Positions 1,050 through 61,287 of a stretch of 64,000 nucleotides of DNA are shown here, piece by piece. This DNA is from Dehalococcoidia bacterium. GTDB taxonomy: Bacteria; Chloroflexota; Dehalococcoidia; Lucifugimonadales; CAZENU01. Each line of letters opens with the position of its first letter. Within the stretch, counting starts at the first letter, position 1. A model generated the notes under the pieces. It was not told the origin of the DNA. It searched no databases and was given only the letters and a program-made list of their open reading frames with translations. The translations under genes were made by a program, and so were the position numbers. Location: positions 408,435 to 472,434 of the forward strand of contig CBDCTC010000006.1 in NCBI GenBank assembly GCA_965222125.1. The letters are read 5' to 3'.

Positions 1050-2683
<1,634 letters not shown>

Positions 2684-2697
2684 CTACCAGGATGCTA

Positions 2698-2728
2698 CCT
2701 TGCCAGCCTCGCGGGACTGGATTAAAGG
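2698..2728 (-). promoter_or_regulatory. candidate PyrR-binding stem-loop
   Basis: Minus strand CCUUUAAUCCAGUCCCGCGAGGCUGGCAAGG has a UCCAG...AGGCU core resembling the PyrR binding-loop consensus (UCCAGAGAGGCU). It lies 45 nt upstream of the terminator hairpin. Confidence 0.35.
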
Positions 2729-2901
2729 TCGTCGACTAGGTCCGGACGTCGCGTGTCAACGTGACCGGCATTGTACCCAATCGCCGCCGTCCGCTTCAAC
2801 CGCCCCCTTTTCCCAAACCGGTCGGTCTCCCGGCCTGGCGGCTTTGACTCGGCGGCGGCGGCGGCATAGAATCGAACGACCACGCACCGGAGACGCAACA
2901 T

Positions 2902-37080: not shown

Positions 37081-37282
37081 GGCCACTGGATCCAGGGACT
37101 TTCCCAGAGAATGAAAAGACCCTGCCACTGGATCCCGTCGGATGACTGTCAGCCAACCCCCGGCGGAGCAGCGGCGGACCGGAAGCCGAGGGCTTGGCGG
37201 GATACCGAAGCCGTCGGGAAGGCCGCCACACTTTTGTCGCCCCCCCCCCCGGCCCATCATGTTCCGGTGCGGCCTTCCTTCT

Positions 37283-49400: not shown

Positions 49401-52400
49401 GGTCGCCGTCGCCTGCGCCCGTCATCATCTGGTAGGTCAGCGCGTCGCCCTCCGGGTCCACCGCAGCGGTGACGGTCCCCGCCGCCGTCTGTTCCTCGTC
49501 CGGGATCATCGTCTGGGCGATGGTGGGCGCCGCCGGCACCAGGGTGCCGGTCGAGTCCGTGTAGGCGACTGACATGAACACCGGCGGCCTGTTGGTCACC
49601 AGGGCCGGCGCCGAGCGGCCCTGCCGCCCGAACTCGTAAGCGCTGGGCGTGCCGTCCCTGTCCCACTCCGCCTTCAGCGCCGGGTACTGGCTCGCCGTGC
49701 CGAAGTCCCACGGGTCGTCGTCGGTGTTGGAATCCCCGTCCATGTCAATATTCCAGTTGGCGTATATGCCCGCATAGCCGTCGGCCTGCGTGGGCGACTG
49801 CAACGCGGAGGTGGTCTTGCCCACGCCGCCGGCGCTGGTCCCCTGCCCGCTGGTCGTAGTGTCCCAGTAGCTGTCGGTGACCGTCGGGCTGCTCCGCTGC
49901 CGCCCGACCAGCCCGCCCACGCGGGTGGAGCCTTGCACCTGGCCCCGGGCGTAGCTGGCCGTCACCGTTCCTCCATCGAGTTCGCCCACCAGCCCGCCGA
50001 CGTTCGTGCCGCCGCCGGCAACGTCACCGGCGGCGTAGCTGGCTTCAATTTTTCCTCCGACGAAGCCCGCCAGCCCGCCGAGGTTGACGCCGGAGCCGGA
50101 GACGTCGGCCGTTGTGTAGCTGCGGCGGACCTCGCCGCTGGAGGATACACGGCCCACCAGCCCGCCGACGTTCGTGCCGCCGCCGGTGACGCTGCCCGTG
50201 GAGTAGCTACTTTCCACCGTGCCGTCAACCAAGCCAGCCAGCGAACCCACGGCCGTCTTCCCGGTAACGGTGGCGTTGACCAGGCCCAGGTTGCGGATGA
50301 CGCCTCCCGAGCCAATCGCCCCGAACAGGCCCACGCGAGAGATGTTCGGCCGGTTGATCAACATGTTGGACATGGTGTACCCGCCGCCATCGAAGGTGCC
50401 GACGTAGGGGTGCCCGTCGCTCCCCAGGGGAATCCAGCCTTTGCCGCCGAACCAGGAGGTGTCGGCGGAGGTAACGGTACCGTCGTTTCCGTGGGTGTCG
50501 AAGTCCAGGTTCCTTATGAGCTCGTAGCCGGTGCACGTCGGCTGGTCGGGCGTACCGGCGTTGCTGTCATGGTCGGCGTCGGGGCAGCCCATACCCACTG
50601 GCGAGTTGGGGAAGGCGCGGGCATAGAGGGGCTGGCCGGAGCGGCCGTTACCGTCCAGGTCATAGCGGATGGCGTTCAGCTGGACAATGAAGGAAACCTC
50701 GATGAGCCCGTCGCCGTCGGCGTCGTAGTCCTTGTTTACGTTGATGGTCACCGTGATACTGGCGGACGTTCCGCTGCTGTAGGTGGCGGTTACCACGACG
50801 GAATAGGAAGCTTTGACCGCGCGGTTCAGGGCGCCCTGGGTCTTCAGCTGACCGCTGCCAGCGTCCATGTCGAAATGGCCGGCGTCTGTGCCGCTCAAGG
50901 CGTAGGTCAGCGTGGCCCCGGCTGCTGGGGCCTGCGCGACCGGGGAGCCGGGGATGTCCTGGTTCGCGGGAGCGCCCTCGGTCACGGTAAGCGTCTTGCG
51001 GGTTCCGTCGACAAAGATATCGGAGCGGTACTGGCCCCCGAACTCGTAGGCCGTGCCGCCCCCGTACGCCGCCGCCTTCAGCGCCGGGTACTGCTGGGTC
51101 GTGCCGAAGTGCCACGGATCGTCGCCGCCCGCCTGGCCGTCCAGGTTCAGATTCCAGCTGGAGTAGATGCCGGCGTAGCCGTCGGCCTGCGTGGGCGACT
51201 GCAACGCGGAGGTGGTCTTGCCCACGCCGCCGGCGCTGGTCCTCTGCCCGCTGGTCTGCGTGTCCCAGTAGCTGTCGGTAACCGTGAGCAGGCCTTGGTT
51301 CTTCAAGCCAATCAGTCCTCCCACGCGGCTGTTGCCGGACACCGCGCCGGCGGCGTAGCTGGCTGTCACGTGGTTCATGAACGAGCTGGCGAGCATCATT
51401 TGGCCGATCAGCCCGCCTACATGGCCGTCGCCGGATACCGCGCCTGTGGCGTAGCTGGCCCGGATCCTGTTGGGCCGAGCAGCTCTATAGTCAAGGACCT
51501 CCCCAATCAGCCCGCCGGCGATATTGCCGGTGGCGGTGACGGTGACGGTGGCGTAGCTCTTCTCCATGGTGGAGGCGACAAAGGAGCCGATCAGCCCGCC
51601 TACAGCGTAGTCGCCCGATACGGCGCCCGTGGCGTAGACTGCCTTCACCGTAGCGCTTTCGGTGTGGCCGGCCAACGCGCCAATATGAATTGCGCCGGTT
51701 ACGTTCACGTTCTCCAGTCCCAAGTTCTCGACCGAGCTGTTCCTTCCAAGGGAGCCAAACAGCCCATTCTCATCGTCCTGGGGACGGCTGATGAACAGGT
51801 GGGAGATGGTGTGGCCGTTGCCTTCGAAGGCCCCAGTGTACCGCTCCCCGTCCGCGTCCCTGCCGATGGGCGCCCAGCCGTCGCCGCCGCTCCAGTAGGT
51901 GCGGTCGTCGACCTCGGTCATCTGGCCGTCGCCGTTCTCGTCGAAGTCCAGGTCCGCCGTCAGCTCGTAGCCGCGGCAAACCGCGTTGGGGCAGCCCATC
52001 CCCTCCGCCGGCGTGGTGAAGACGGCCAGGTAGCCCACGTTGGCGCTCACCCCGTCCCCGGCCAGGTCCCAGCGCATCGCGTCCAGCTGGGCCAGGCTGT
52101 CCACTTCGATCAGCCCGTCGTCGTCCGAGTCATAGTCCACCGAGTCCGTCGCTCCCTCGCTCACGTCGTCGACCGAGATGGTCACGTCGATGCTGGCCGT
52201 CATGCCCGCGCTGTCCGTAGCGACGACCCGCACCTGTAGCGCGGTCCTGGTCTCGTGGTCCAGCACGATCTTGGTCGAGATCTGGCCCGTGGAGTGATGT
52301 ATGACGAAATACGCGGCGTCGGCGCCCGCCAGCGAGTAGATGAGCCAGTCTCCCGCGTCGGCGTCCGTGGCCGTGGGCGAGCCGCTGATGGCGACGTCCG

Positions 52401-55400
52401 GGCGGGTGTTCTCCGGCACGGTCACCGTCTTGCTGGGGCCGTCCGCGAAGGTCGGGGGGGTGGTGAACGCCACCCGCGATTGGCTCCCGAACTCGGCCGC
52501 CGTCGCGCTGCCGCTCTCGTCCGTGTCGAACTTCAGCGCCGGGTACTCGTTGGCTGTGCCGAAGTCCCACTTGGCGGCGTCCCAGGTGGCGTAGATGTTC
52601 TGGACGCCGACGGTGGCGCCGTCCATATCGGTGGTCGTGTCCACCGGCGCCTGCAGCTCCGCGGTGGTCTTGCCCGTTGAGAGGGCCGCGACACTCGAGT
52701 CCTCGTCCGCTATGGCATGGCCCGAGGTCTCGGTGTCCCAGTAGTTGCCCGTACCGATTCCGAGGCGGGCGCCAAAGAATACTTTGGCTATGATGCCGCC
52801 GGTTAGGCCTGCGCTCGAAACACGGCCCCGGGCGTAGCTGCGCAAGATCTCCCAATTGCAATTGCCGAGACCGGAGCCGACCAGGCCGCCCGCGTACATG
52901 CGGTCGGCGGTCACCGTGACGTTGGCGTAGCTGTCCAGAATGGCGGCGTCGCTGGTGGCCATGTAGCCTGCCAAACCGCCGGCGGAGGTCCCACGCGGCG
53001 GGCCGGTGGCGGAGCGCGCGGCCCTCACGTACCCGGTGGCGTACACCATCTCCAGCGTGCCGTCGAGGCTGCCCACGAACGCCCCTACATACTCTCCGCC
53101 CGTCACGGACACCCGCTCCAAGCCCAGATTGCGAACGACGGCGCCGTCGCGCAAGGTTCTCCACAGCCCCACGTCCGTTTCCGCCGGGCGGTTGATGTAC
53201 AGGTTGGAGATCCGGTGCCCCTTGCCGTCGAACGTGGCAGTGAACCGTTTGCCCGTGGCGTCGACGCCCAGCGGATCCCAGCCCAACCCCTCGTTCCAGG
53301 CGCCGTCTGCGGGGGTGATGACACCGTCGCCGTCCTCGTCGAAGTCCAGGTCCGCCGTCAGCTCGTAGCCCGTGCACGTCGGCTGGTCAGGCGTGGCCGC
53401 GTCGCTGTCGTGGTCGGTGAGGACGCAGCCCATGCCCGCTGCGGGGTTGGGGAAGGCCAGCGCGTAGTCGTCGGCGTTGGCCGCGATGGGGTCGCCGTCT
53501 CCGTCCGGGTCCCACCGGATGGCGTTCAGCTGCTTCAGGCTGCTGACCTCGATCAGGCCATCGTCGTTGCCGTCGTAGTCCACGCCGGTCGACTGCGCCA
53601 ACGGCACGCCGGTGACGGCCGCCGTCCAGGGGCTGGAGCCCTCGTTGTTCTTGGCCAGCGCCTGCACCTGGTAGGTCGACCCGGCGGTGAGGCCGGTTAT
53701 CGTGGCGGTGGTCCCGGTCCCGACGTGGTCGAAAGCCAACCAGGCGCCCCACACAACGGGGTCGCCGGCGGCGCTGGTGCGCAGGCTGTGCTGCACGTCG
53801 TAGTCCGAGAGGGGCGGCTTGGCGGCCGGCATCACCGGCGCCGTCCAGGTCACCCGCAGTCCTTCGACCACCGGGAAGACCTGGAGGTTGGTGGGGGCCG
53901 TTGGCGGCTCGAGCGTGTCGTCAACGGTGACCGTGAGCGCCAGGGTGATGTCCACCGTGGCGTCGTTGGCGCCGGCGGCGTTCTTGCCGTCATGCACGGT
54001 AACGCTGACGCTGTAGCGCGGCTTCGTCTCGTGGTTCGCCGCGTCATTCAGGGTCAGTACTCCTGCGCCGGAGATGGCGAAGGCGGCTGCATCCGTGCCG
54101 GTCACCGCGTAGGTCAGCGTGTCGCTGTCCGGGTCGGTGGCGGCATAGGTTCCCACCGCCGTTGCGCCCTCCGCCACGTTGGGCGTCGCGTCGGCCCCGG
54201 CGTCGAAGACCGGCGGGGCGTTGGCCGGCGGCTGCACCGGCGCCCCCGGCGCGGAGCGGCCCTGCCTGCCGAACTCGTAGGCGGTGGCCGTGCTGTCCTT
54301 GTCGGTGTCATACTTCAGCGCCGGGTACTGGCTGGACGTGCCGAAGTCCCAGGTGGCCGCTGCCCAGGTCGAGTAGATGCCCGTGGCGCTGGTGGGCGAT
54401 TGCAGCCCCGCCGTGTTCTGGCTGACGGCCCCGGCGCCCCCGGCGCTGGCGGCCTGAGCGCTGGTTGTGGCGTCCCAGTAGCCGGCGGTCACCGTGGCGT
54501 CCGCAGTAGCCTCCCCCACCAGTCCGCCCTTGGTCCTGGCGGCCGAGTTTCCGCCGCTGACCAGCATAGCCACCGCGGATACGGCCCCCACGGCGTAGCT
54601 GTTGGTGATCCTGGCCGTGCTGTTCCGGTTGAACCCCACCAGTCCGCCCACCGCTCTGTTGCCGTTGACCGTCACGCTGGAGTAGCTGTTGGTTACAACG
54701 CCTCTGTTGTCTCCCACCAGCCCGCCCACGTTCTCGAATCCCGTAACTGCGCCGGTGGAGTAGGAGCCCTCCACCGCGCCGCGGTTGCTCCCCAACAATC
54801 CCCCTATGGAGTTGAACGTGGGCGACCCTGTGCGGTCGATGTCCACGTCCAACACGGCCACGTTGCGAAGGACCCCGGGACTATTGATGCTGCCGAACAG
54901 CCCCTGGTCGCCAATAGCGGCCCGTATCCTCATATTGGAGATGGTGTGGCCGCCGCCGTCGAAGGTGGCGGTGAACGGGGTGGCCCAGGCGCCGATGGCC
55001 GTCCACGAGGGGTAGTCGTCGCTGCTGTCCACGTCGCCGTCGTCGTCGGTGTCGAAGTCTAGGTCGTCCGTCAGCTCGTAGCCGGTGCAGGCGTTGCCGG
55101 CGCAGCCCATGCTGGCCGCCGCGTTGGGGAAGGCGTGGTCAAAGGAGGCCTGGTTGGCAGCGGTCACCGCGCCGTTGCCGTCCAGGTCGTAGCGAATGGC
55201 GTTCAGCTGCGCCAGGCTGTCCACCTCGATAAGCCCGTCGTCGTCCGTGTCGTAGTCCGTCGGCGGCGGCGGGGCCGCGCGCGCCTGGCTGCCGAACTCC
55301 TGCCAGGTCGCCCCGCCGATGCCATTGGTGTCGTACTTCAGGGCCGGGTACTGGCTGGCCGTGCCGAAGTCCCAGGTGGCCGCTGCCCAGGTCAAGTAGA

Positions 55401-58400
55401 TGCCCGTGGCGCCGGTGGGCGATTGCAGTCCCGCCGTGGTCTGGCCCACGGCGCCGGCGCCCCCGGCGCTGGCGGACTGCCTGCTGGCCTCGGTGTCCCA
55501 GTAGCCGGCCGTGACCGTGGCGCCCCCGTCGTTCTTGCCCACCAGACCGCCAACATCCGCGATGGGATTTTGACGTGAACCGCCTCCTGGGGGCGTTCCG
55601 GTTAGTCCATGGGTGGCTACCTTGCCCATGGCGTAGCTGTTGGTGATGGTCCCCGATGCGTTCTCGTTCCATCCCACCAGGCCGCCGACCTGGGTGTTGC
55701 CGGTGACCGCCATGCGGGAGTAGCTGTCGCTGATCGCCCCCCGGTTGTGGCCCACCAAGCCTCCTGTCTTCGAGAAGGCCCAGATGCTGCCCCCGCTGAC
55801 GAAGACGCGCTGGATAGCGCCCCGGTTGCTCCCCGCCACCGCAGCGGCGGAGTCGAGCGTCAATGCCCCGGTGCGGTCGATGCTGGGGTTCACCATGCCC
55901 AGGTTGCGGATGACCGAGGACGTGTCCGTGCTGCCGAACAGGCCCACGTCTCCCCCGCCGATTCTGATGTACAGATTGGAGATGGTGTGGCCTCTGCCGT
56001 CAAAGGTGGCGTTGAAGGGGTTGGCCCAATCGCCGATGGGCGCCCAGCCGGCGCCGCTGTTCCACCAGGCGGCGTCCGCGGAGGTGATAGCGTTGTCGTT
56101 GTTCTGGTCGAAGTTCAGGTCGTCCGTCAGCTCGTAGCCGGCGCAGGCGGAGTTGAGGCAGCCCATGCTGCCCTGCGCGTTGGGAAAGGCGGTATCGTAA
56201 CTGGCCTTGTCGGCGGGGGTCACCCCGCCGTCGCCGTTCAGGTCGTAGCGGATGGCGTTCAGCTTCGCCAGGCTGTCCACCTCGATCAGGCCGTCGTCGT
56301 CCGTGTCGTAGTCCACCGGCGCTATGCGCACCTGGCCGCCGAACTCCTGCCAGGTCGCCCCGCCGACGCCGTCGGTGTCGTACTTCAGCGCCGGGTACTC
56401 GCTGGTCGTCCCGAAGTCCCACTTGACGGTACCCCATGCCGAGTAGATGCCCGTCGCGCCGGTGGGCGATTGCAGTCCCGCCGTGGTCTGAGCGGCGCCG
56501 GCGGCGCTGGCGGCCTGCCCGCTGGCCTCGGTGTCCCAGTAGCTGGCCGTCACCGCGGCGCCGCTGGAATTCTGGCCCACCAGACCGCCAAAGTCCGCGG
56601 CGGCATTTGTCCCTGAAACGCCGCCGCGCGTTCCGGCCTCTCCGTGGGTGGCCACTCCCCCGGCGGCGTAGCTGTTGGTGATGATTCCCGAAGCGGTCTC
56701 GTTCCACCCCACCAGGCCGCCGACCTGGGTGTTGCCGGTGACCGTCATGCGGGAGTAGCTATTGCTGACCGTTCCCCGGTTGTGGCCCGCCACACCGCCT
56801 ATCTTCGCGTAGGCCCAGATGCTGCCGCCCGTGACGAAGACGCGGTCGATCGTCCCACGGTTGCTCCCCGCCACCGCAGCGGCGGAGTCGAGCGCCAATG
56901 ACCCTGTGCGGTCGATGCTCGGGCTCACCATGCCCAGGTTGCGGATGACCGAGGCCGTGTCGGTGCTGCCGAACAGGCCGACGTCTCCCCCGCCTACTCT
57001 GATGTACATGTGGGAGACGGTGTGGCCGCCGCCGTCAAAGGTGGCGTTGAAGGGGGCGGCCCAGTTGCCGATTGGCGCCCAGCCGGCGCCGCTGTTCCAC
57101 CAAGCGGCGTCCGCGGAGGTAATAGCGTTGTCGTTATTCTGGTCGAAGTCCAAGTCCGCCGTCAGCTCGTAGCCGGTGCAGTTGGGCGTCGCGGCATCGC
57201 CGTCGGTGTCGGGACAGCCCATGCCCGCCTCCGGGTAGGGGAAGACGGCGGCGTAGTTGCTGGCGCTGGCCGAAGCCGGGGCGCCGTCGCCGTCCAGGTC
57301 CCAGCGGATGGCGTTCAGCTTCGTCAGGCTGCCCACTTCGATCAGGCCGTCGTCGTCGAGGTCGTAGTCGACCGCCGCCGCAGGCACGCCGTTGACGGCC
57401 GCCGTCCATGCGCTTTCGCCCTCGTTGTTCTTGGCCATCACCTGCACCTGGTAGGTCGACCCGGCGACGAGGCCGGTTATCGTGGCGGTGGTCCCGGTCC
57501 CGACGTGGTTGAAAGCCACCCAGGCGCCCCACGTAGCGGGGTCGCCGGCGGCGCTGGTGCGCAGGCTGTGCTGCACGTCGTAGTCATCGAGGGCCGGCTT
57601 GGTAGATGGCATCACCGGCGCCGTCCAGGTGACCGTCAGCCCGTTGGCCGCAGGAACGACCCCCAAGCTGGTGGGAACCGTTGGCGGCTCGAGCGTGTCG
57701 TCAACGGTGACCGAGATCGCCAACGTGAGGTCCACCGTGGTGTCGGCGCCGCCGGCGGCGTTCTTGCCGTCGTGCACGGTAACGTTGACGCTGTAGCTCT
57801 CCTTCGTCTCGTGGTTCGACGCGCTAGCGAGGGTCAGCGCCCCGGCGCCGGAGATGGCGAAATCGGATGCGTCCGTGCCGGTCACCGCGTAGGTCAGCTG
57901 GTCGCCCTCCGGGTCGGTGGCGGCATAGGTCCCCACCGCCGTTACGCCCTCCGCAATGTTGGGCGACGCGTTGTACCCGGCGTTGAAGGTCGGCGGGGCG
58001 TTGGCCGGCGGCCCCACCCCCGGCGCCGAGCGGCCCTGCCGCCCGAACTCGTAGGCCGTGGGTGTACCGTCGCCGTCCCACTCCACCTTCAGGGCCGGGT
58101 ACTCGCTGGCCGTCCCGAAGTCCCATGGGTCGTCGGTCTCGGTCGTGGTGTCGTCATCGACATCGGCGTTGTCCACGTCGATGTCCCAGTCGGCGTAGAT
58201 GCCCGCATAGCCGTCGGTCTGCGCGGGCGACTGCAACTGGAGGGTGGTCTTGCCGACGCCGGTGGTGGCGTCGCTGTCGTCGGCAATGCCGCTGCTGGTG
58301 ACGTCCCAGTAGCTGTTGGTGATTGTGCCCTTGTTGAGTTCGCCTATCAGCCCGCCTTTATCGCTACCGGCCCCGGTTACCGCGCCGGTGGCGTAGCTGG

Positions 58401-59106
58401 CGGTGATGTCACCCCCGGACTCGCCCACCAGCCCGCCAATGCGGTTGCTATGGCTGGAGCTGCCGGCTACCGCGCCGGTGGCGTAGCTAGCCCGAATTGG
58501 TCCCCGGTTGGTGCCCACCAGCCCGCCTAAACGAGTGCCAAATCCGGTGACGCTGGCGGTGGAGTAGCTCCTCTGGATTGAACCATTCTCACTCAAGTGA
58601 CCTACCAGCCCGCCCACGTGAGTAAGCTTGTTGCTGACAACTATGCCGGTGGAGTAGGCGGCATCTACAGTGCCGTAGGCATGGCCAATCAGCGCGCCGG
58701 TGTAGCCCCAGCCGGTTACGTTCACGTCCACCAGTCCCACGTTGCGGAAGAAGCCGGCCTCGGAGGAGATGCCGAAAAGCCCCACCCACCGGTGAGCCCG
58801 GCTGATGAAGAGGTTGGAGATGGTGTGGCCATTGCCCTCGAAGATGGCGTTGTACCAGGTGTTCCTCCCCGAAGAATCATCCCCGATGGGCTCCCAGCCC
58901 GAGCCGCTGTTGTAATAATCGTCGGCGGCGTCGATCACCGCAGCGCCGCCGGAGTCGCTGCCCGTGTCCGTGTTGAAGTCCAGGTTCGCGTCCAGCTCGT
59001 AGCCCGTGCAGTCGTTTGTCGTCGGCGTCGGTGGCGGTGATGGGACAGCCCATGCCCGTTGCGGGATTGGGGAAGGCCAGCGCGTAGTCGTTGGCGTTGG
59101 CCACAT
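40402..59106 (-). CDS. giant secreted modular protein 2, main part (GLUG beta-helix, cadherin, FN3), 6234-aa ORF
   Basis: Same supermodule architecture as gene 1 (modules 2-8). It contains a 10 x 101-aa identical cadherin array followed by alternating cadherin/FN3 domains to the C-terminus. The real continuity with 58877..60529 is at ~59016, not at the ORF-track Met. Confidence 0.9.
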   Translation of the reverse strand: MWPTPTTTRWPSPIPQRAWAVPSPPPTPTTNDCTGYELDANLDFNTDTGSDSGGAAVIDAADDYYNSGSGWEPIGDDSSGRNTWYNAIFEGNGHTISNLFISRAHRWVGLFGISSEAGFFRNVGLVDVNVTGWGYTGALIGHAYGTVDAAYSTGIVVSNKLTHVGGLVGHLSENGSIQRSYSTASVTGFGTRLGGLVGTNRGPIRASYATGAVAGSSSHSNRIGGLVGESGGDITASYATGAVTGAGSDKGGLIGELNKGTITNSYWDVTSSGIADDSDATTGVGKTTLQLQSPAQTDGYAGIYADWDIDVDNADVDDDTTTETDDPWDFGTASEYPALKVEWDGDGTPTAYEFGRQGRSAPGVGPPANAPPTFNAGYNASPNIAEGVTAVGTYAATDPEGDQLTYAVTGTDASDFAISGAGALTLASASNHETKESYSVNVTVHDGKNAAGGADTTVDLTLAISVTVDDTLEPPTVPTSLGVVPAANGLTVTWTAPVMPSTKPALDDYDVQHSLRTSAAGDPATWGAWVAFNHVGTGTTATITGLVAGSTYQVQVMAKNNEGESAWTAAVNGVPAAAVDYDLDDDGLIEVGSLTKLNAIRWDLDGDGAPASASASNYAAVFPYPEAGMGCPDTDGDAATPNCTGYELTADLDFDQNNDNAITSADAAWWNSGAGWAPIGNWAAPFNATFDGGGHTVSHMYIRVGGGDVGLFGSTDTASVIRNLGMVSPSIDRTGSLALDSAAAVAGSNRGTIDRVFVTGGSIWAYAKIGGVAGHNRGTVSNSYSRMTVTGNTQVGGLVGWNETASGIITNSYAAGGVATHGEAGTRGGVSGTNAAADFGGLVGQNSSGAAVTASYWDTEASGQAASAAGAAQTTAGLQSPTGATGIYSAWGTVKWDFGTTSEYPALKYDTDGVGGATWQEFGGQVRIAPVDYDTDDDGLIEVDSLAKLNAIRYDLNGDGGVTPADKASYDTAFPNAQGSMGCLNSACAGYELTDDLNFDQNNDNAITSADAAWWNSGAGWAPIGDWANPFNATFDGRGHTISNLYIRIGGGDVGLFGSTDTSSVIRNLGMVNPSIDRTGALTLDSAAAVAGSNRGAIQRVFVSGGSIWAFSKTGGLVGHNRGAISDSYSRMAVTGNTQVGGLVGWNENASGTITNSYAMGKVATHGLTGTPPGGGSRQNPIADVGGLVGKNDGGATVTAGYWDTEASRQSASAGGAGAVGQTTAGLQSPTGATGIYLTWAAATWDFGTASQYPALKYDTNGIGGATWQEFGSQARAAPPPPTDYDTDDDGLIEVDSLAQLNAIRYDLDGNGAVTAANQASFDHAFPNAAASMGCAGNACTGYELTDDLDFDTDDDGDVDSSDDYPSWTAIGAWATPFTATFDGGGHTISNMRIRAAIGDQGLFGSINSPGVLRNVAVLDVDIDRTGSPTFNSIGGLLGSNRGAVEGSYSTGAVTGFENVGGLVGDNRGVVTNSYSSVTVNGNRAVGGLVGFNRNSTARITNSYAVGAVSAVAMLVSGGNSAARTKGGLVGEATADATVTAGYWDATTSAQAASAGGAGAVSQNTAGLQSPTSATGIYSTWAAATWDFGTSSQYPALKYDTDKDSTATAYEFGRQGRSAPGAPVQPPANAPPVFDAGADATPNVAEGATAVGTYAATDPDSDTLTYAVTGTDAAAFAISGAGVLTLNDAANHETKPRYSVSVTVHDGKNAAGANDATVDITLALTVTVDDTLEPPTAPTNLQVFPVVEGLRVTWTAPVMPAAKPPLSDYDVQHSLRTSAAGDPVVWGAWLAFDHVGTGTTATITGLTAGSTYQVQALAKNNEGSSPWTAAVTGVPLAQSTGVDYDGNDDGLIEVSSLKQLNAIRWDPDGDGDPIAANADDYALAFPNPAAGMGCVLTDHDSDAATPDQPTCTGYELTADLDFDEDGDGVITPADGAWNEGLGWDPLGVDATGKRFTATFDGKGHRISNLYINRPAETDVGLWRTLRDGAVVRNLGLERVSVTGGEYVGAFVGSLDGTLEMVYATGYVRAARSATGPPRGTSAGGLAGYMATSDAAILDSYANVTVTADRMYAGGLVGSGLGNCNWEILRSYARGRVSSAGLTGGIIAKVFFGARLGIGTGNYWDTETSGHAIADEDSSVAALSTGKTTAELQAPVDTTTDMDGATVGVQNIYATWDAAKWDFGTANEYPALKFDTDESGSATAAEFGSQSRVAFTTPPTFADGPSKTVTVPENTRPDVAISGSPTATDADAGDWLIYSLAGADAAYFVIHHSTGQISTKIVLDHETRTALQVRVVATDSAGMTASIDVTISVDDVSEGATDSVDYDSDDDGLIEVDSLAQLDAMRWDLAGDGVSANVGYLAVFTTPAEGMGCPNAVCRGYELTADLDFDENGDGQMTEVDDRTYWSGGDGWAPIGRDADGERYTGAFEGNGHTISHLFISRPQDDENGLFGSLGRNSSVENLGLENVNVTGAIHIGALAGHTESATVKAVYATGAVSGDYAVGGLIGSFVASTMEKSYATVTVTATGNIAGGLIGEVLDYRAARPNRIRASYATGAVSGDGHVGGLIGQMMLASSFMNHVTASYAAGAVSGNSRVGGLIGLKNQGLLTVTDSYWDTQTSGQRTSAGGVGKTTSALQSPTQADGYAGIYSSWNLNLDGQAGGDDPWHFGTTQQYPALKAAAYGGGTAYEFGGQYRSDIFVDGTRKTLTVTEGAPANQDIPGSPVAQAPAAGATLTYALSGTDAGHFDMDAGSGQLKTQGALNRAVKASYSVVVTATYSSGTSASITVTINVNKDYDADGDGLIEVSFIVQLNAIRYDLDGNGRSGQPLYARAFPNSPVGMGCPDADHDSNAGTPDQPTCTGYELIRNLDFDTHGNDGTVTSADTSWFGGKGWIPLGSDGHPYVGTFDGGGYTMSNMLINRPNISRVGLFGAIGSGGVIRNLGLVNATVTGKTAVGSLAGLVDGTVESSYSTGSVTGGGTNVGGLVGRVSSSGEVRRSYTTADVSGSGVNLGGLAGFVGGKIEASYAAGDVAGGGTNVGGLVGELDGGTVTASYARGQVQGSTRVGGLVGRQRSSPTVTDSYWDTTTSGQGTSAGGVGKTTSALQSPTQADGYAGIYANWNIDMDGDSNTDDDPWDFGTASQYPALKAEWDRDGTPSAYEFGRQGRSAPALVTNRPPVFMSVAYTDSTGTLVPAAPTIAQTMIPDEEQTAAGTVTAAVDPEGDALTYQMMTGAGDGDHALFNFNAGTRALAFKAAPNFEATPPKTTYTVKIRVRDTKNAQGTGDNTWDSTITVTINLQNVNEAPEFSPKTQTMTPNENQTAAGTVTAAVDPDANPTLTYRMLTTTGDHALFTFNTTTRALTFKAAPNFEAKDSYTVSIQVRDSLDDAGTADTAWDATVAVTINVTNVNEAPEFPGTTATREVAENGGANANVGLPVTATDVDSGDTRAYALSGADSGSFTISSSTGQITADASLNFEAVKNTFTVVVTATDDGNLTDTITVTINVTNVNEAPTFPGTTATREVAENGGANANVGLPVTATDVDSGDTRAYALSGADSGSFTISSSTGQITADASLNFEAVKNTFTVVVTATDDGNLTDTITVTINVTNVNEAPTFPGTTATREVAENGGANANVGLPVTATDVDSGDTRAYALSGADSGSFTISSSTGQIMADASLNFEAVKNTFTVVVTATDDGNLTDTITVTINVTNVNEAPTFPGTTATREVAENGGANANVGLPVTATDVDSGDTRAYALSGADSGSFTISSSTGQITADASLNFEAVKNTFTVVVTATDDGNLTDTITVTINVTNVNEAPTFPGTTATREVAENGGANANVGLPVTATDVDSGDTRAYALSGADSGSFTISSSTGQITADASLNFEAVKNTFTVVVTATDDGNLTDTITVTINVTNVNEAPTFPGTTATREVAENGGANANVGLPVTATDVDSGDTRAYALSGADSGSFTISSSTGQITADASLNFEAVKNTFTVVVTATDDGNLTDTITVTINVTNVNEAPTFPGTTATREVAENGGANANVGLPVTATDVDSGDTRAYALSGADSGSFTISSSTGQITADASLNFEAVKNTFTVVVTATDDGNLTDTITVTINVTNVNEAPTFPGTTATREVAENGGANANVGLPVTATDVDSGDTRAYALSGADSGSFTISSSTGQITADASLNFEAVKNTFTVVVTATDDGNLTDTITVTINVTNVNEAPTFPGTTATREVAENGGANANVGLPVTATDVDSGDTRAYALSGADSGSFTISSSTGQITADASLNFEAVKNTFTVVVTATDDGNLTDTITVTINVTNVNEAPTFPGTTATREVAENGGANANVGLPVTATDVDSGDTRAYALSGADSGRFTISSSTGQITADASLNFEAVKNTFTVVVTATDDGNLTDTITVTINVTDALERWTPPTNMHIDVVTLANRIRVTWTAPAAADNTGKPALTGYKVEWRQKYSANAAWAPDWVDFPRSGLGTTTDITTYTVNAADGTPTTHTVATGGGRIFEVRVCSLNTDGAKSTDSPKAEQCGSWTGNALPSFTEGIKASRSVAENTAANTNIGLPVGAADSDAGDTLVYSMTDSTGSRKFTIDSATGQLKTKDPLDHETAGSYDVYVKVNDGSNGIDAIMVTITVTDVNEPPAFDDGAGPTARSVSESAVAGDAIGDPVEATDPDTKADPLDTLTYALDTTTGDHANFEIDTGTGQLKVKDALDYETKSSYTVTVQVRDSLSAAGVADTVWDDTIVVNISVGDVNEAPVFTAGAGPLNRSVAENAGANANVGLPVPATDVDDGDSVTLSLSGTGANLFSISSTGQIKAKASLDYETAVSYAITVTATDTSSATDTILVNISVTDVDEPPTAPTGVAAGGIANGLRVTWTAPVMTNKPTLDGYDVEYSLRTAVAVGATTATWGAAVITDAGLVLTHDITGLTPDSTYRVRVRAKNAEGISGWSSYDTGVPTVPPLVNADPTFGEGADTSRSVPENTAAGTAIGNPLTATDADAGDTLVYAIDGATGDYAHFAIDTGTGQLKAKGALDYESGTTSYSITVTVSDGNGGTDSIDVTITVTNVNEKPAFPAGAQTLTPNENQTAAGTVTAATDPEGDTLTYRMLPDTGDDDSFNFNAGTRTLTFKTAPDFEAKDSYTVSIQVKDSKNAAGVASLTWDDTVVVTVGVQDVSERPSAPTGLGVLAAANGLRVTWTAPDMTGKPPVTGYKLHYSRRDFAAGPGQWGNWVNHAHAGTGTSAKITGLTAGDTYRVQVRATNADGDGSWTSPDTGVPTAPPVSNAVPVFTDGASTTRSVAENTAAGTNIGLPIAATDADAGDTLVYAIDATTGDHGHFAIDWASGQLKTKSALDYESNNRYTVVVTVSDGNGGTDSITVTIDVTDVVNEPPGVVPPPANRAPSFDEGASASRSVAENTASGQDIGLPLAATDPDSDSLSYALGGTDSGHFALAGNRLRTSGALDYEGKSSYLVTVTVSDGRGGTDTIAVTITVTNVDEAPTVTPTPVAPTGTLAFDKVGVARRTVDAYAPVGTAVGAPVTATVSAGMAGPFYSVYTRSSPFTVDRLTGQLRTARKLGPADEYTIQLLATDGKGRLDVIGVIITVTGGRANRDPVFREGASATRSVVAGSSRGVRVGRPVTATDQDGDALFYMVSGADSSHFSIGSGSGQIKVGRPLTKSSYSFEVVVGDLKGGVDVLDITITVTAVDAPPVATTPTPTPNRAPSFDEGAGASRSVAENTPAGRNIGLPLAATDPDSDSLTYALGGTDSGHFALSGNQLRTSGALDYEGVKNSYAVTVTVSDGRGGTDTIDVTITVTNVNEAPVVAPPPANRAPSFDEGASASRSVAENTPAGTDIGLPLAATDPDSDSLTYALGGTDSGHFALSGNQLRTSGDYAGVKSSYAVTVYVSDGRGGTDTIDVTITVTNVNEAPVVAPPQANRAPSFDEGASASRSVAENTPAGQDIGLPLAATDPDSDSLTYALSGADSGHFALSGNRLQTSGALDYEGQNSYSVTVNVSDGNGGSDTTAVTITVTNVDEPPGALPGLAVFEEVNGIRVSWSAPDMRGKPPVTGYDVQYKLVTATDWNDHSHSGTGTTIQGLTAGSTYKVRVRAKNAEGNSVWASAQGTPTAAPVTPVPPGATTNLEVTPGYSKLRLTWNMPDMTGKPPITHFEVQYKLSIDKYWLDFPHDSTVSRVTIDFLGGGLSYDVRVRAVNSAGSSDWVSSSGTTK
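45873..48905 (-). repeat. 10 x 303-bp near-identical tandem repeat (one 101-aa cadherin domain per unit) inside giant gene 2
   Basis: Antisense ORFs recur every 303 nt from 46049 to 48776. The unit is (T/E)FPGTTATREVAENGGANANVGLPVTATDVDSGDTRAYALSGADSGSFTISSSTGQITADASLNFEAVKNTFTVVVTATDDGNLTDTITVTINVTNVNEAP. Only three variable nucleotide positions were seen by eye. Confidence 0.9.
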
Positions 59107-60529
59107 CTGGGGCGCCGTCGCCGTCCAGGTCCCAGCGCATCGCGTTCAGCTGGTCCAGGTCGGCGACCTCAATCAGCCCGTCGTCGTCCAGGTCGTAGTC
59201 CACCACCGGCGCGGAGCGGCCCTGCCGTCCGAACTCGTAGGCCGTGGCCCTGCCGTCGCCGTCCTCGTCCGCTTTCAGCGCCGGGTACTGGCTGGCCGTG
59301 CCGAAGTCCCACGGGTCGTCGTCGGTGCTGGCGTCCCCGTCCAGGTTGAGGTTCCAGTTGGCGTAGATGCCCGCGTAGCCGTCGGTCTGCGTGGGCATTT
59401 GCAAATCTCTGGTGGTCTTGCCGACGCCGGTATCCGCATTATTGTCGTCGGCGATGCCGGTGGTAGTGACGTCCCAGTAGCTGTGGCCCACCGTGGCGCC
59501 ACTGCCACTCGGATTTAGCAATCCCCCTGCGTGGCCTGAGGCGGAGGTGACGGCGCCGGTGGAATAGCTGGCGTAGATACCGCCTTCCGACGCGCCAACC
59601 AAGCCGCCAGCCTGAGCATTGCTGGAGCCTGTGGCAGTGACGGCGCCCGTGGCATAGACGGCATATAAAGAGGTTGGAGAATAGCCCGCCAGCCCACCGA
59701 CGTCATCAAGGCCAGTGACAGCGCCAGTGGCGTAACTGACCCGCACAGTGCCCCCGCTGTACCCAACCAAGCCACCCACATTTTTGCCAGTGGCCGTAAC
59801 GACGGCGCTGGAGCGGCTGTACTCGACCACCCCGCTGCTGCTGTTGATAGCCCCAACCAGGCCGCCAACCTTGCCCACGCCGGAGACGGTCCCGCTGGAG
59901 GAGCTGTGGCTCACCGTGCCCAGCGTGATGTGCCCCACCAGCGCGCCAACGTCGTTGTTGCCTGTCACCTTCGCGTCGACCAGGTGAACGCGCGTGACCG
60001 TCGCGCCGCCCAGCTGGCCGAACAGCCCGATGTAGTTGTCGCTGTTGCCCGCAACGTTGATGAACAGGTTGCTGATCGTGTGGTTGTTGCCCTCGAAGGT
60101 GGTCCGGAAGGGGTTCGGCCCGCTGTCGCCCAGCGGCTCCCAGCCGTCGCCGCCGTTCCAGTAGGTATCGGCGACGGTAACGGCATCGTCGTCGCCGTGG
60201 GTGTCAAAGTCCAGGTCCGCCTCCAACTCGTAGCCCGTGCAGGTGGCGGCGCAGCCCATGCTCGCGAGCGCGTTGGGGAAGGCGATATCATAGTTGGCCT
60301 GGTCGCCGGAGGCCACTGTGCCGTTGCCATCCAGGTCGTACCGGATGGCGTTCAACTGGGCTAAGTTGGAAACCTCGATGAGGTTGTCGCCGTCGGTGTC
60401 GTAGTCCACGGTGCCCGACCCCGACTGCGCCCCGGCAGGACTAGCCGGGGAGAGGAGCAGCGCTCCCAGCGCCAAGGCCAGCAGCCCGATGAGTCCGAAC
60501 CGGGCGAGGCTGCCCGCCGCCACGCTCAT
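58877..60529 (-). CDS. giant protein 2, N-terminal part (signal peptide, module 1, start of module 2), separated from the main ORF by a 1-nt frameshift
   Basis: MSVAAGSLARFGLIGLLALALGALLLSPASPAGAQS, then DYDTDGDNLIEVSNLAQLNAIRYDLDGNG... The homologous text ...GMGCPITATDADD continues as (N)DCTGYELDANLDF in the frame of 40402..59106. Confidence 0.85.
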   Translation of the reverse strand: MSVAAGSLARFGLIGLLALALGALLLSPASPAGAQSGSGTVDYDTDGDNLIEVSNLAQLNAIRYDLDGNGTVASGDQANYDIAFPNALASMGCAATCTGYELEADLDFDTHGDDDAVTVADTYWNGGDGWEPLGDSGPNPFRTTFEGNNHTISNLFINVAGNSDNYIGLFGQLGGATVTRVHLVDAKVTGNNDVGALVGHITLGTVSHSSSSGTVSGVGKVGGLVGAINSSSGVVEYSRSSAVVTATGKNVGGLVGYSGGTVRVSYATGAVTGLDDVGGLAGYSPTSLYAVYATGAVTATGSSNAQAGGLVGASEGGIYASYSTGAVTSASGHAGGLLNPSGSGATVGHSYWDVTTTGIADDNNADTGVGKTTRDLQMPTQTDGYAGIYANWNLNLDGDASTDDDPWDFGTASQYPALKADEDGDGRATAYEFGRQGRSAPVVDYDLDDDGLIEVADLDQLNAMRWDLDGDGAPDVANANDYALAFPNPATGMGCPITATDADDKRLHGLRAGREPGLQHGHGQRLRRRCGDRRRRRLLQQRLGLGAHRG

Positions 60530-60563
60530 GAGCCCGCCTGCCCACTTCCTGACCGCAAAAATC

Positions 60564-60580
60564 GGGGGGGGGGGGGGGGG
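60564..60580 (-). repeat. poly-C tract (C17 on the coding strand), 34 nt upstream of the ATG of giant gene 2
   Basis: Plus strand G17. The context is CTA-C17-GATTTTTGCGGTCAGGAAGTGG. Confidence 0.9.
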
Positions 60581-60690
60581 TAGAAAAACGCCGCCGGCGC
60601 AGCGTCGCGCTAACGGCAGATTGGGCTAGGGTCGGGGCGTTGGACATTGTTCTATCGTCTCCTTCACCTGTGATAATGGCGGACTTCGCT

Positions 60691-61110
60691 CTACGCCCAG
60701 GCGGTGGTGGCCGGGACCAGCCTGCCGTGGGCCGGGTCCACTGCCAAGCGCAGCCCTTCCAGCGTGTAGGGCCCCAACAGGGCGCGGGCGTCGTCATTCC
60801 CGAAGACCACCAGGGTGGCCTCGGTGCGTCCGTCGATGGTGGCCCGAGCTTCCCCGATGTCGTACTCCACGGGCCGCCCGTCGGCCAGCACGAGGCTGAT
60901 CTTGTCGATGGGCGACACCCCAATGTCCCGCAGCAGGTTGGCGGGCACGATGGCGTAGCTGGCCCCGGTATCCACCATCGCCTCTATCTCCAGCGACCGT
61001 TGGCCGTCCATGCTCTCCAGCCGGATGGGCCAGTTGAAAACGCCCAAATCCCTCACTCCCTTTGCGCCGTGTTTCCAAGGGACTATTCTACGAGTCGGGC
61101 ATTCTACCAT
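60691..61110 (-). CDS. retropepsin-like (clan AA) aspartyl protease
   Basis: ...LEIEAMVDTGASYAIVPANLLRDIGV... has the DTGA active-site motif in the usual context. The start is uncertain. Confidence 0.65.
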   Translation of the reverse strand: MVECPTRRIVPWKHGAKGVRDLGVFNWPIRLESMDGQRSLEIEAMVDTGASYAIVPANLLRDIGVSPIDKISLVLADGRPVEYDIGEARATIDGRTEATLVVFGNDDARALLGPYTLEGLRLAVDPAHGRLVPATTAWA

Positions 61111-61228
61111 TTTGCGTCGGTTTCCGGCAACAAGAAAGGATCACATACTCACCTATAGCGACGCGCAGAGGGGTGTCCCTGCGCCGCCGGAGTTGAAACG
61201 CAAAAAGGGCGGCATACATGACTGTGCA

Positions 61229-61269
61229 GGGGGGGAGGGCATCGCTCGATCAGCGATGCCCTCCCCCCC
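61229..61269. terminator. long GC-rich hairpin just downstream of the SNF2 gene stop
   Basis: GGGGGGGAGGGCATCGCT-CGATC-AGCGATGCCCTCCCCCCC (18-bp stem). The T-rich run follows only on the plus strand, so it may act bidirectionally or as an RNA-stability element. Confidence 0.5.
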
Positions 61270-61287
61270 TTTCCTTTGTGTTGCGAC

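What the first reader, a model, noticed from the sequence alone, without database searches (positions are those of the whole stretch)
60530..60600. Poly-C (C17) tract in the homologous leader upstream of giant gene 2
- A run of 17 identical bases (G17 on the plus strand, 60564-60580) is far beyond chance for this composition. My rough expectation for a run of at least 17 in 64 kb is well below 0.01.
- It sits in the same CTA-Cn-GA(Y)TT...TCAGGAAG context as the C10 tract of gene 1.
- Two paralogous giant surface-protein genes with the same leader but different tract lengths is the pattern expected for independently phase-variable loci.
- Tracts of this length are also error-prone for polymerases and sequencers, so the number 17 itself needs confirmation.
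Basis: partly seen in the sequence, partly recalled or inferred. Interest (0 to 1): 0.75.

Follow-up and report, generated by a model that had tools for sequence, protein, structure and literature searches.

The report
Hypervariable poly-C tract before giant adhesin gene
A run of 17 C's just upstream of a giant surface-adhesin gene in an uncultivated Dehalococcoidia bacterium is real and varies from 8 to 23 C's between otherwise near-identical copies in related genomes, so it looks like a slippage-driven on/off or volume switch, a known kind of device not previously reported in this phylum.

Summary
G17 lies at 60564-60580 on the plus strand, which is C17 on the gene strand, 34 nt before the ATG of giant GLUG/cadherin/FN3 gene 2. 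About 3e-5 to 2e-4 such runs are expected by chance.

The same leader occurs in at least 8 other Dehalococcoidia long-read assemblies. Flanks are 92-98% identical and the tracts are pure: C8, 10, 11, 11, 13, 13, 14, 15, 17, 17, 17, 17, 18, 18, 23. Two contigs from one sample are identical over 606 nt except for 6 C's. Length hypervariability is therefore shown, and an artefact is very unlikely, although each count may be off by about 1.

The tract is not in a promoter spacer. Promoter-like sites lie at least 105 nt upstream. The tract sits in the transcribed leader, inside a short upstream reading frame that starts at an ATG with a Shine-Dalgarno (SD) ribosome-binding site 67 nt upstream. That ATG is at the position where tract-less relatives start their adhesin gene, and the tract reads as poly-proline.

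Tract length decides whether this frame fuses to the adhesin ORF, stops at a UGA overlapping the adhesin start, or overruns it out of frame, as it does in the window.

My best reading is a contingency locus acting at the level of translation. The mechanism is inferred, not shown. It is a new member of a known kind, and of moderate interest.

The parts
60564..60580 (-). Uninterrupted C17 tract (G17 on the plus strand). It is the hypervariable element.
   Evidence: Homologous tracts of 8-23 C's occur.
60530..60563 (-). Conserved 34-nt linker GATTTTTGCGGTCAGGAAGTGGGCAGGCGGGCTC between the tract and the adhesin start. It contains the shared TCAGGAAG motif and a G3/G4 indel site.
   Evidence: The linker is conserved in all leader types. 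L025, L041 and L042 carry a 12-nt, frame-preserving deletion.
60527..60529 (-). ATG start of giant gene 2 (MSVAAGSLARFGLIGLLALALGALLLSPASPAGAQS...). The following A gives AUGA, so a UGA stop in the +1 frame overlaps the start.
   Evidence: An RTG occurs at this position in all 15 leaders seen.
60441..60647 (-). Upstream reading frame. The ATG at 60647-60645 opens MSNAPTLAQSAVSATLRRRRFST, followed by poly-Pro encoded by the tract. With C17 the frame overruns the adhesin ATG out of frame and stops at 60441.
   Evidence: (ORF 60441..60923).
60659..60665 (-). Shine-Dalgarno-like GAAGGAG, 11 nt before the upstream ATG.
   Evidence: A GGAG, GGGAG or AAAGG element is kept in all type-A leaders.
60584..60606 (-). 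Terminator-like hairpin: an 8-bp stem with a GCCG loop (-13.1 kcal/mol), followed by U5. It lies inside the upstream frame, and 3 nt (CUA) separate its U5 run from the tract.
   Evidence: The substitutions seen fall in the loop, in the loop-closing pair, or turn a G.U pair into A-U.
60691..61047 (-). 118-aa retropepsin-like aspartic protease gene. It is co-oriented with, and directly upstream of, the leader in most related loci.
   Evidence: 357 homologues, most of them 118 aa.
61101..61130 (-). Sigma-70-like promoter TTGCCG-18-TGgTAGAAT (extended -10) upstream of the protease gene. It is the only promoter-like site in 60300-61400.
   Evidence: It is conserved in the alignment.
40402..60529 (-). 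Giant gene 2, about 6,700 codons, with GLUG, cadherin, FN3 and Big_9 repeats. In this window it is split by one extra A at 59015-59017.
36613..36622 (-). C10 tract in the leader of gene 1 (CTA-C10-GACTTCGGCTCAGGAAG-N9-GTG at 36586). It is a paralogous short version of the same motif.

Best explanation
The C17 run is a slippage-prone simple-sequence tract, that is, a contingency locus, at the 5' end of a giant adhesin gene in a Dehalococcoidia lineage.

**Proposed mechanism**
- The tract is transcribed. Transcription starts from a promoter upstream of the small protease gene, or, in other loci, from a consensus promoter about 105-120 nt upstream of the tract.
- The tract lies inside a short upstream reading frame that begins at an SD-equipped ATG 67 nt before it and reads the tract as poly-proline.
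- Replication slippage changes the number of C's. This resets the phase in which ribosomes from the upstream ATG reach the adhesin start 34-35 nt beyond the tract. There are three phases:
  1. in frame, giving an N-terminally extended adhesin;
  2. stopping at a UGA that overlaps the start (AUGA or GUGA), which allows termination-reinitiation;
  3. running about 30 codons into the adhesin ORF out of frame, which should occlude its start. This is the state in the window.
- Each giant adhesin gene that carries the tract can therefore be switched independently and heritably.

**Shown:** the tract, its hypervariability with conserved flanks, its position downstream of promoter-like sites, and the upstream ATG and the three phases in silico.

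**Inferred:** that the upstream ATG is used, and that phase changes adhesin output.
For: - **Hypervariability.** Fifteen homologous tracts, all uninterrupted, have n = 8, 10, 11, 11, 13, 13, 14, 15, 17, 17, 17, 17, 18, 18, 23. Flanks from -440 to +120 are 92-98% identical.
- **Close pairs.** L041 and L042 are identical over 606 nt except for 6 C's. The window and its orthologue L006 differ by 2 C's within roughly 99%-identical sequence.
- **Specificity.** In 64 kb plus 143 kb of related DNA, every homopolymer of at least 9 nt is this tract, lies in or beside a giant gene, or lies in the promoter region of the protease gene that precedes one (L003).
- **Transcribed position.** Promoter-like sites lie upstream of the upstream ATG: window 61130-61101, L025 ATGACA-17-TACAAT, and L041/L042 TTGACA-17-TATAAA (read). 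None flanks the tract.
- **Upstream start.** The ATG with GGAG is kept in all type-A leaders. Tract-less relatives L032 and L033 start their adhesin gene at the same distance after the protease stop. L034 and L043b show that the upstream peptide resembles an ordinary adhesin N-terminus.
- **All three phases occur in assemblies.** In frame: L001, L002, L009, gene 1. UGA overlap: L005, L006, L025, L041, L042. Overrun: window, L003, L004, L008.
- **Frame-preserving deletion.** The 12-nt linker deletion in L025, L041 and L042 keeps the reading frame.
Against: - There are no reads, transcripts or proteins, so neither switching within a population nor any effect on expression is shown.
- The upstream peptide is not conserved as a protein. 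Substitutions are 4 synonymous to 11 non-synonymous, no better than in the other two frames.
- The adhesin start has some SD-like potential of its own: -8 to -12 kcal/mol against -6 to -9.5 for the upstream ATG. It may therefore initiate independently.
- The phase classes are about uniform (4/5/4). They rest on homopolymer counts from long-read assemblies, which can be off by 1, so they carry little weight.
- From general knowledge: a run of 17 C's should also provoke RNA-polymerase slippage and ribosomal frameshifting on CCC codons. Both would blur a strict three-phase switch.
- Leader types C and D (L009, L043a, gene 1) have different upstream starts, or ones derived from an insertion sequence (IS).
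Confidence: 0.45

Rival explanations
1. Length-dependent effect at the transcript level, not the reading frame. The poly-C RNA, or the G-run on the template strand, acts as a graded brake. Possible routes are a Rho loading site in the leader, RNA-polymerase pausing or slippage on the run, or a G-quadruplex in the template strand. Longer tracts would give less full-length adhesin mRNA.
For: - The tract is in the transcribed leader, immediately after a terminator-like hairpin plus U5.
- Lengths span a wide range (8-23) with no period-3 preference, as expected for a volume control.
- The upstream peptide is not conserved.
- From general knowledge: poly(C) is the classical activator of Rho, and G15 or longer can fold into a quadruplex.
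Against: - Predicted RNA folding energy is almost independent of n (-84 to -87 kcal/mol for n = 0-23).
- Neither Rho nor any rut-like context was examined here.
- If the upstream frame is translated, ribosomes would shield the tract from Rho.
- The hairpin is missing from leader types B, C and D, which still keep the tract.
Confidence: 0.2
2. Hypermutable but functionally neutral relic. A C-run arose at the junction of a partial 5' duplication of the adhesin gene and has spread among paralogues by gene conversion. Its length drifts, with no regulatory consequence, because the adhesin is translated from its own start.
For: - The whole 5' cassette (protease, leader, signal peptide) is homogenised among paralogues and species, while the gene bodies diverge.
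- The adhesin start has SD-like potential.
- The phase classes are uniform.
- Some tract-bearing genes are already broken: the window frameshift and the nonsense codon in L041/L042.
Against: - Fifteen of 15 tracts are pure C with no interrupting base, across at least 4 leader types and at least 8 species-level genomes. Long neutral homopolymers are expected to shrink or be interrupted.
- The association with one gene class is exclusive.
Confidence: 0.2
3. Promoter-spacer switch of the Bordetella fim, Neisseria porA or Mycoplasma vlp type. The tract separates a -35-like TTTCTA from a -10-like GATTTT, and the promoter is on only at about 17 C's.
For: - The commonest lengths are 17-18 (6 of 15).
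- GAYTTT keeps A at position 2 and T at position 6 in most leaders.
- The terminator-like hairpin just upstream would otherwise insulate the adhesin gene.
Against: - The consensus scan finds no promoter at the tract.
- Both hexamers match the consensus at only 3 of 6 positions.
- The sequence upstream of the tract differs completely among leader types: gtttttcta, ctctgtttg, cctgtcag, ttggtgcta.
- Good promoters lie 105-120 nt upstream, followed by an SD-ATG.
- A range of 8-23 would leave most copies permanently off.
Confidence: 0.07
4. Sequencing or assembly artefact. The run, or its length, is produced by homopolymer errors or polishing.
For: - The related assemblies I retrieved are long-read, and the window contains a probable 1-nt indel.
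- One related contig (L024) ends about 45 nt before the expected tract.
Against: - The tract recurs at the same place in more than 10 independent contigs from several assemblies, at up to 212x coverage.
- The differences of 2 to 12 nt are far beyond homopolymer miscalls.
Confidence: 0.03

Closest known systems
Intragenic homopolymer switches in the signal-peptide-coding 5' end of surface-protein genes, such as the Neisseria pilC poly-G tract and the opa CTCTT repeats (my own knowledge, not checked here)
   Same: - An uninterrupted G/C run lies just after a start codon and before or within the signal-peptide region of an adhesin gene.
- Slippage changes the reading frame.
- Several paralogous genes carry the tract and can switch independently.
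   Different: - The tract is much longer: up to 23, against about 8-13.
- A second, conserved start codon with the signal peptide lies 34-35 nt downstream, so two of the three phases may still give protein.
- The upstream peptide is not conserved.
- The organism is an uncultivated Dehalococcoidia, not a pathogen.
Promoter poly-C or poly-G spacer switches: Bordetella pertussis fim2/fim3 poly-C, Neisseria porA/opc, Mycoplasma hyorhinis vlp poly-A, Treponema pallidum tpr poly-G (own knowledge). The abstract listed for PMC2715451 describes Helicobacter sabA, with tracts in both the promoter and the coding region.
   Same: A homopolymer directly upstream of a surface-protein gene, with length variable between strains and several paralogues affected.
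   Different: Here the tract is not between promoter elements. Promoter-like sites lie at least 105 nt upstream, and the upstream flank is not conserved among leader types.
Simple-sequence repeats in a 5' untranslated region acting through mRNA structure or processing, for example Haemophilus influenzae (PMC12721329; abstract seen)
   Same: The repeat lies in the transcribed leader between the promoter and the adhesin ORF, so the effect is post-transcriptional.
   Different: - No length-dependent RNA structure is predicted here.
- The repeat is a homopolymer that is potentially translated as poly-Pro.
Leader-peptide or upstream-ORF control with overlapping stop and start codons (translational coupling), and proline-codon leaders such as Salmonella mgtP (own knowledge)
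   Same: An SD-driven short frame ahead of the main ORF, an AUGA/GUGA stop-start overlap in one phase, consecutive Pro codons, and a terminator-like hairpin within the leader.
   Different: - In known cases the leader is genetically fixed and senses physiology.
- Here the leader's frame is itself mutable.
- No alternative antiterminator pairing was found.

Membership tests
Simple-sequence-repeat contingency (phase-variable) locus | An uninterrupted repeat long enough for slipped-strand mispairing (G/C run of about 8 or more). | tested here: met
   C17 in the window. All 15 homologous tracts are pure C, n = 8-23.
Simple-sequence-repeat contingency (phase-variable) locus | Repeat number differs between close relatives while the flanks stay conserved. 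| tested here: met
   Flanks are 92-98% identical. L041 and L042 are identical over 606 nt except for 6 C's. The window and orthologue L006 have C17 and C15.
Simple-sequence-repeat contingency (phase-variable) locus | The repeat is placed where a length change alters expression (promoter, 5' leader or 5' coding region) of a surface or host-interaction gene. | tested here: met
   The tract is 34 nt before the start of a signal-peptide-bearing GLUG/cadherin/FN3 protein and lies inside an SD-ATG frame. The position is met. The effect on expression is inferred.
Simple-sequence-repeat contingency (phase-variable) locus | Length heterogeneity within one population, with reversible switching. | not testable with these tools
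   No reads are available. The JGI metagenome scan returned only chance hits.
Simple-sequence-repeat contingency (phase-variable) locus | Expression state correlates with repeat number. | not testable with these tools
   No transcriptome, proteome or reporter data.
Promoter-spacer repeat switch (fim, porA, vlp type) | The tract lies between the -35 (or an activator site) and the -10 of the gene's promoter. | tested here: not met
   No promoter-like site spans the tract. Promoter-like sites lie at least 105 nt upstream. The upstream flank is not conserved among leader types.
Intragenic frameshift switch (pilC, opa type) | The tract lies downstream of the start codon that is actually used, so that one length class in three gives full-length protein. 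| tested here: inconclusive
   - An SD-ATG lies 67 nt upstream, at the position of the adhesin start in tract-less relatives.
- It is in frame in 4 of 13 copies.
- No coding signature is seen in the upstream peptide.
- A conserved second start follows.
Intrinsic terminator or attenuator in the leader | A GC-rich hairpin followed by a U-run, plus a mutually exclusive antiterminator. | tested here: inconclusive
   - A hairpin of -13.1 kcal/mol plus U5 is present and conserved in type-A leaders.
- No alternative pairing stands out.
- It is absent from leader types B to D.
Any curated cis-regulatory RNA family (Rfam 15) | A match to a covariance model. | tested here: not met
   No hit at gathering score near the tract. 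With the E-value threshold, only two chance-level hits appear in 60400-61200.

The most novel reading that the evidence does not exclude
The tract may be a three-state translational switch of a kind not yet described. A mutable poly-proline upstream frame would choose among three outcomes:
- fusion to the adhesin ORF;
- stop-start reinitiation at the overlapping UGA;
- occlusion of the giant adhesin's own start codon.

Output would be further graded by tract-length-dependent ribosome stalling, RNA-polymerase slippage or Rho loading. The switch would be carried on a conserved, recombining 5' cassette (promoter, protease, leader, signal peptide) shared by many giant adhesin genes of one symbiont lineage. 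It would also be targeted by an insertion sequence that lands in the C-run.
Probability: 0.15. Interest if true: 0.75.

Novelty: new member of a known kind. Interest (0 to 1): 0.55.

Why it matters
- **A new setting for a known device.** Slippage-driven contingency loci are textbook features of host-adapted pathogens such as Neisseria, Haemophilus, Campylobacter, Helicobacter, Bordetella and Mycoplasma. Four full-text searches returned nothing on them in Chloroflexota/Dehalococcoidia or in sponge-type symbionts.
- **What this case adds.** A whole set of giant cadherin/FN3/GLUG adhesin genes in an uncultivated Dehalococcoidia lineage carries the same pure, hypervariable C tract. If it switches or tunes adhesin output, these bacteria would be varying their largest surface proteins stochastically, as pathogens do. 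That bears on how symbionts or biofilm dwellers cope with hosts, phages or grazers.
- **It is directly testable.** Existing long-read metagenomes allow per-read tract counts.
- **A practical point.** Gene callers and assemblers mishandle these 5' ends, giving contig breaks, shifted starts and apparent pseudogenes.

Tried and rejected
1. **JGI metagenome scan** for C7+GAYTT..TCAGGAAG: 13 hits, all C7-C8 with unrelated flanks. They are chance matches, so they give no population data.
2. **Exact look-up of the helicase**: not on record.
3. **Exact look-ups of protease variants** P0008, P0006, P0047, P0016 and P0010: these copies sit in unrelated contexts (next to ClpB, OsmC/rhodanese or amidohydrolase genes). 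The protease family is multi-copy and not diagnostic of the leader.
4. **Protein search with the fused N-terminus**: only 2 short hits, so the giant proteins are poorly reachable this way. The two hits did lead to L041-L043.
5. **RNA-structure switch**: the minimum free energy barely changes with n from 0 to 23. Rejected as the main mechanism.
6. **Known RNA families**: none.
7. **SD strength comparison**: not discriminating, because the G-rich linker also pairs with the anti-SD.
8. **Synonymous versus non-synonymous test of the upstream frame**: no coding signal.
9. **Twin-arginine (Tat) signal** in TLRRRRFST: rejected, because the hydrophobic core begins about 27 residues later.
10. **Homology between the C11 at 37240-37250 and the leader**: rejected, because the T-rich motif lies on the opposite side of the run.
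11. **Identifying the sampling environment from accession numbers**: nothing found. A sponge origin is only my guess from study-style sample labels and HiFi data notes.

Full report
**1. Observation**

The plus strand carries 17 consecutive G's at 60564-60580. This is the longest homopolymer in the 64-kb window, which is 64.6% G+C. The number of runs of at least 17 expected by chance is 1.9e-4 under an iid model and 2.8e-5 under a first-order Markov model.

On the minus strand the run reads ...GCGTTTTTCTA-C17-GATTTTTGCGGTCAGGAAGTGGGCAGGCGGGCTC-ATG. The ATG at 60529 opens MSVAAGSLARFGLIGLLALALGALLLSPASPAGAQS..., which is a typical signal peptide. GLUG-motif modules follow, then cadherin, FN3 and Big_9 repeats.

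Gene 1 has CTA-C10-GACTTCGGCTCAGGAAG-N9-GTG at 36613-36622. The similarity is limited to about 20-25 nt around the tract.

All four G/C runs of at least 9 in the window lie in or beside the 5' ends of the two giant genes.

**2. Relatives and length variation**

I scanned one genome per bacterial and archaeal species for C8+GAYTT(2-8 nt)TCAGGAAG. The scan gave 10 loci, 9 of them in Dehalococcoidia MAGs assembled into megabase contigs. Two of the 10 loci (L007 and L010) look like chance matches.

- Seven loci (L001-L006, L008) carry the same leader as the window, with C18, C18, C13, C11, C17, C15 and C23. L009 has a diverged leader with C17.
- Look-ups through the neighbouring protease gene and through two short N-terminal proteins added L025 (C14), L041 (C17), L042 (C11) and L043 (C8 and C13).
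- All 15 tracts are pure C.
- From 440 nt upstream to 120 nt downstream of the tract the copies are 92-98% identical. Beyond +240 identity falls to 55-75%.
- L041 and L042 come from one sample at 182x and 212x coverage. They are identical over 606 nt except for 6 C's.
- L006 is the orthologue of window gene 2, with the same helicase and protease upstream. Within about 5 kb of roughly 99% identity, the only indels are 2 C's in the tract, one extra A in the window, and one at the alignment edge.

Individual counts may still be off by about 1, because the related assemblies are long-read.

The JGI metagenome scan returned only chance matches. No read-level population data could be obtained.

**3. 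Anatomy around the tract**

- **Upstream gene.** A 118-aa retropepsin-like protease gene lies upstream in the same orientation (60691-61047). It has an extended -10 promoter-like site, TTGCCG-18-TGgTAGAAT, at 61130-61101. This is the only promoter-like match in 60300-61400, and it is conserved in the relatives.
- **Upstream start.** Forty-three nucleotides after the protease stop there is GAAGGAG-N11-ATG (60647). This frame reads MSNAPTLAQSAVSATLRRRRFST and then the tract as poly-proline.
- **Hairpin.** Codons 14-21 of that frame contain a conserved hairpin (8 bp, GCCG loop, -13.1 kcal/mol) followed by U5 and CUA, directly before the tract. The few substitutions seen fall in the loop, in the loop-closing pair, or turn a G.U pair into A-U.
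- **Loci without the protease.** In L002, L025, L041 and L042 the same upstream frame is preceded by strong promoter-like sites 105-120 nt before the tract: ATGACA-17-TACAAT and TTGACA-17-TATAAA (read).

The tract is therefore in the transcribed leader, not in a promoter spacer. Nothing promoter-like flanks it, and the sequence immediately upstream differs completely among the four leader types.

**4. Origin of the upstream frame**

Relatives without a tract (L032, L033) have protease, about 41 nt containing an SD, then the adhesin start. That start is at the position where the window has its upstream ATG.

L034 and leader type B (L043b) begin MSDAMTIERTGAFRFAGG... and MSNTMTAARTGAFRFAGSF.... 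These look like ordinary adhesin N-termini.

The upstream frame is therefore best read as the ancestral or duplicated 5' end of the adhesin gene. The C-run lies between it and a second start codon, which is an RTG in 15 of 15 leaders and carries the signal peptide.

**5. Consequence of length**

Tract length, together with a G3/G4 indel in the linker, sets how the upstream frame meets the adhesin start.

| Phase | Copies |
|---|---|
| In frame (fusion) | L001, L002, L009, gene 1 |
| Stop at the UGA overlapping AUGA/GUGA (coupling) | L005, L006, L025, L041, L042 |
| Overrun about 30 codons out of frame | window, L003, L004, L008 |

The 12-nt deletion in the L025, L041 and L042 linker preserves the frame.

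This architecture is what one expects of a translational contingency switch, with possibly two productive phases. The window's C17 would be the occluding phase. Gene 2 is in addition broken by the extra A at 59015-59017.

**6. Weaknesses**

- The upstream peptide shows no coding signature. Substitutions are 4 synonymous to 11 non-synonymous, no better than in the other frames.
- The adhesin start has SD-like pairing of its own.
- The phase classes are uniform, and they rest on error-prone counts.
- Predicted RNA folding is insensitive to n, so a structural switch is unlikely.
- No Rfam family matches.
- From general knowledge, a run of 17 C's should also cause RNA-polymerase slippage and ribosomal frameshifting on CCC codons, and five to seven prolines stall ribosomes without EF-P. 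Output may therefore be graded rather than binary.

Rivals that remain:
- a transcript-level brake (Rho loading on poly-C, pausing, or a quadruplex in the template G-run);
- a neutral hypermutable relic.

Against neutrality stand the purity of all 15 tracts across at least 4 leader types and at least 8 species-level genomes, and their exclusive association with giant adhesin genes in 207 kb examined.

**7. Comparison with known systems**

Functionally this is a simple-sequence contingency locus. The closest analogues are homopolymers in the signal-peptide-coding 5' end of adhesin or pilus genes, such as Neisseria pilC and opa (my own knowledge). Repeats in 5' untranslated regions that act after transcription are also close (Haemophilus, PMC12721329, abstract seen).

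It fails the defining feature of promoter-spacer switches such as fim, porA and vlp.

Membership in the general class is supported on three of five defining features. The other two, within-population heterogeneity and an expression effect, cannot be tested here.

Four literature searches returned nothing on such loci in Chloroflexota or sponge-type symbionts. The environment of these MAGs could not be established.

**8. Verdict**

The tract is real, non-random, conserved in position and hypervariable in length. The phase-variation reading is reasonable and now has comparative support. The tract most likely acts in a translated leader rather than in a promoter.

It is a new member of a known kind in an unexpected lineage, and of moderate interest (0.55). 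The mechanism is inferred, with confidence of about 0.45 for the translational model. I estimate about 0.7 that the tract is a functional contingency locus of some kind.

Noticed in passing
window 59015-59017 (minus strand, 'gacgacAAAcgac'): Giant gene 2 is split into two ORFs (58877-60529 and 40402-59106) by one extra A. The orthologue L006 reads 'gacgacaacgac' here and is uninterrupted. This is either a true pseudogene or a long-read indel error.
   Followed up: yes
window 35599-35607: A second pure C9 run (gene strand) lies inside the coding region of gene 1, about 1 kb from its start. It encodes ...GITPPQNL... and has unusually AT-rich flanks. It is a possible intragenic frameshift hotspot.
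   Followed up: partly
window 37240-37250: C11 on the plus strand (G11 on the gene strand) sits inside the loop of a 10-bp inverted repeat, GGAAGGCCGC...GCGGCCTTCC. The region is a degenerate GLUG-like remnant with direct repeats, between an IS transposase gene (37815-39296) and gene 1. It is not homologous to the leader motif.
   Followed up: partly
L009 1065-1110 (minus strand) and L043 100-1465: An insertion sequence with a DDE_Tnp_1 transposase and ends ACATACCCCTGTCA sits exactly at the poly-C tract in two independent loci. In L043 it is flanked by C7 and C8, with a solo end beside it. The C-run appears to be an insertion hotspot for this IS.
   Followed up: partly
L003 1028-1037; L024 2324-2331: A G10 run (G8 in L024) lies immediately upstream of the 'aaaaTGgTAGAAT' -10 element of the protease promoter, where the window has no run. 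It could be a second, promoter-level variable tract in some genomes.
   Followed up: no
window 60410-61130 versus L001-L008; window 55500-60563 versus L006: - The promoter, protease, leader and signal peptide form a roughly 700-nt cassette that is 92-98% identical among paralogues and species, while the adhesin bodies are 55-75% identical.
- Against L006, the first 5 kb of the giant gene is about 99% identical, but the upstream helicase is only about 85% identical.
- This suggests gene conversion or recent transfer of adhesin genes.
   Followed up: partly
L041 and L042, 1729-1731: Both copies carry the same TAG nonsense codon at adhesin codon 77, where the window has CAG. The rest of the giant ORF continues in frame after it.
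   Followed up: no
L024 (contig end, 67 nt after the protease stop): A 72-kb long-read contig ends about 45 nt before the place where the C tract is expected. This is consistent with assemblers breaking at the heterogeneous or low-quality tract.
   Followed up: no
window 60691-61047 and loci L026-L031, L035-L040, L044-L046: The 118-aa retropepsin-like aspartic protease belongs to a large family: 357 homologues at E<=1e-20, most of them 118 aa. Copies are scattered in unrelated contexts (after ClpB, or next to OsmC/rhodanese or amidohydrolase genes). Its link to the adhesin genes is unexplained.
   Followed up: partly
window 46104-48837: At least ten copies of a 303-nt unit, each with the same C7 run and identical 15-nt flanks at a fixed 303-nt spacing, lie inside gene 2. 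Its translation shows near-identical repeat units there. A run of near-identical 303-nt repeats is itself a likely site of copy-number variation and assembly collapse.
   Followed up: no
window 2621-2732 (minus strand): Rfam PyrR binding site (RF00515, 54.7 bits, just above the gathering score). It is the only curated RNA family hit in the window.
   Followed up: no
window 61228-61270: A 19-bp perfect hairpin (G7...C7 arms) between the helicase and protease genes. It is terminator-like on the plus strand, contains its own short G/C runs, and is useful as a homopolymer error control.
   Followed up: no
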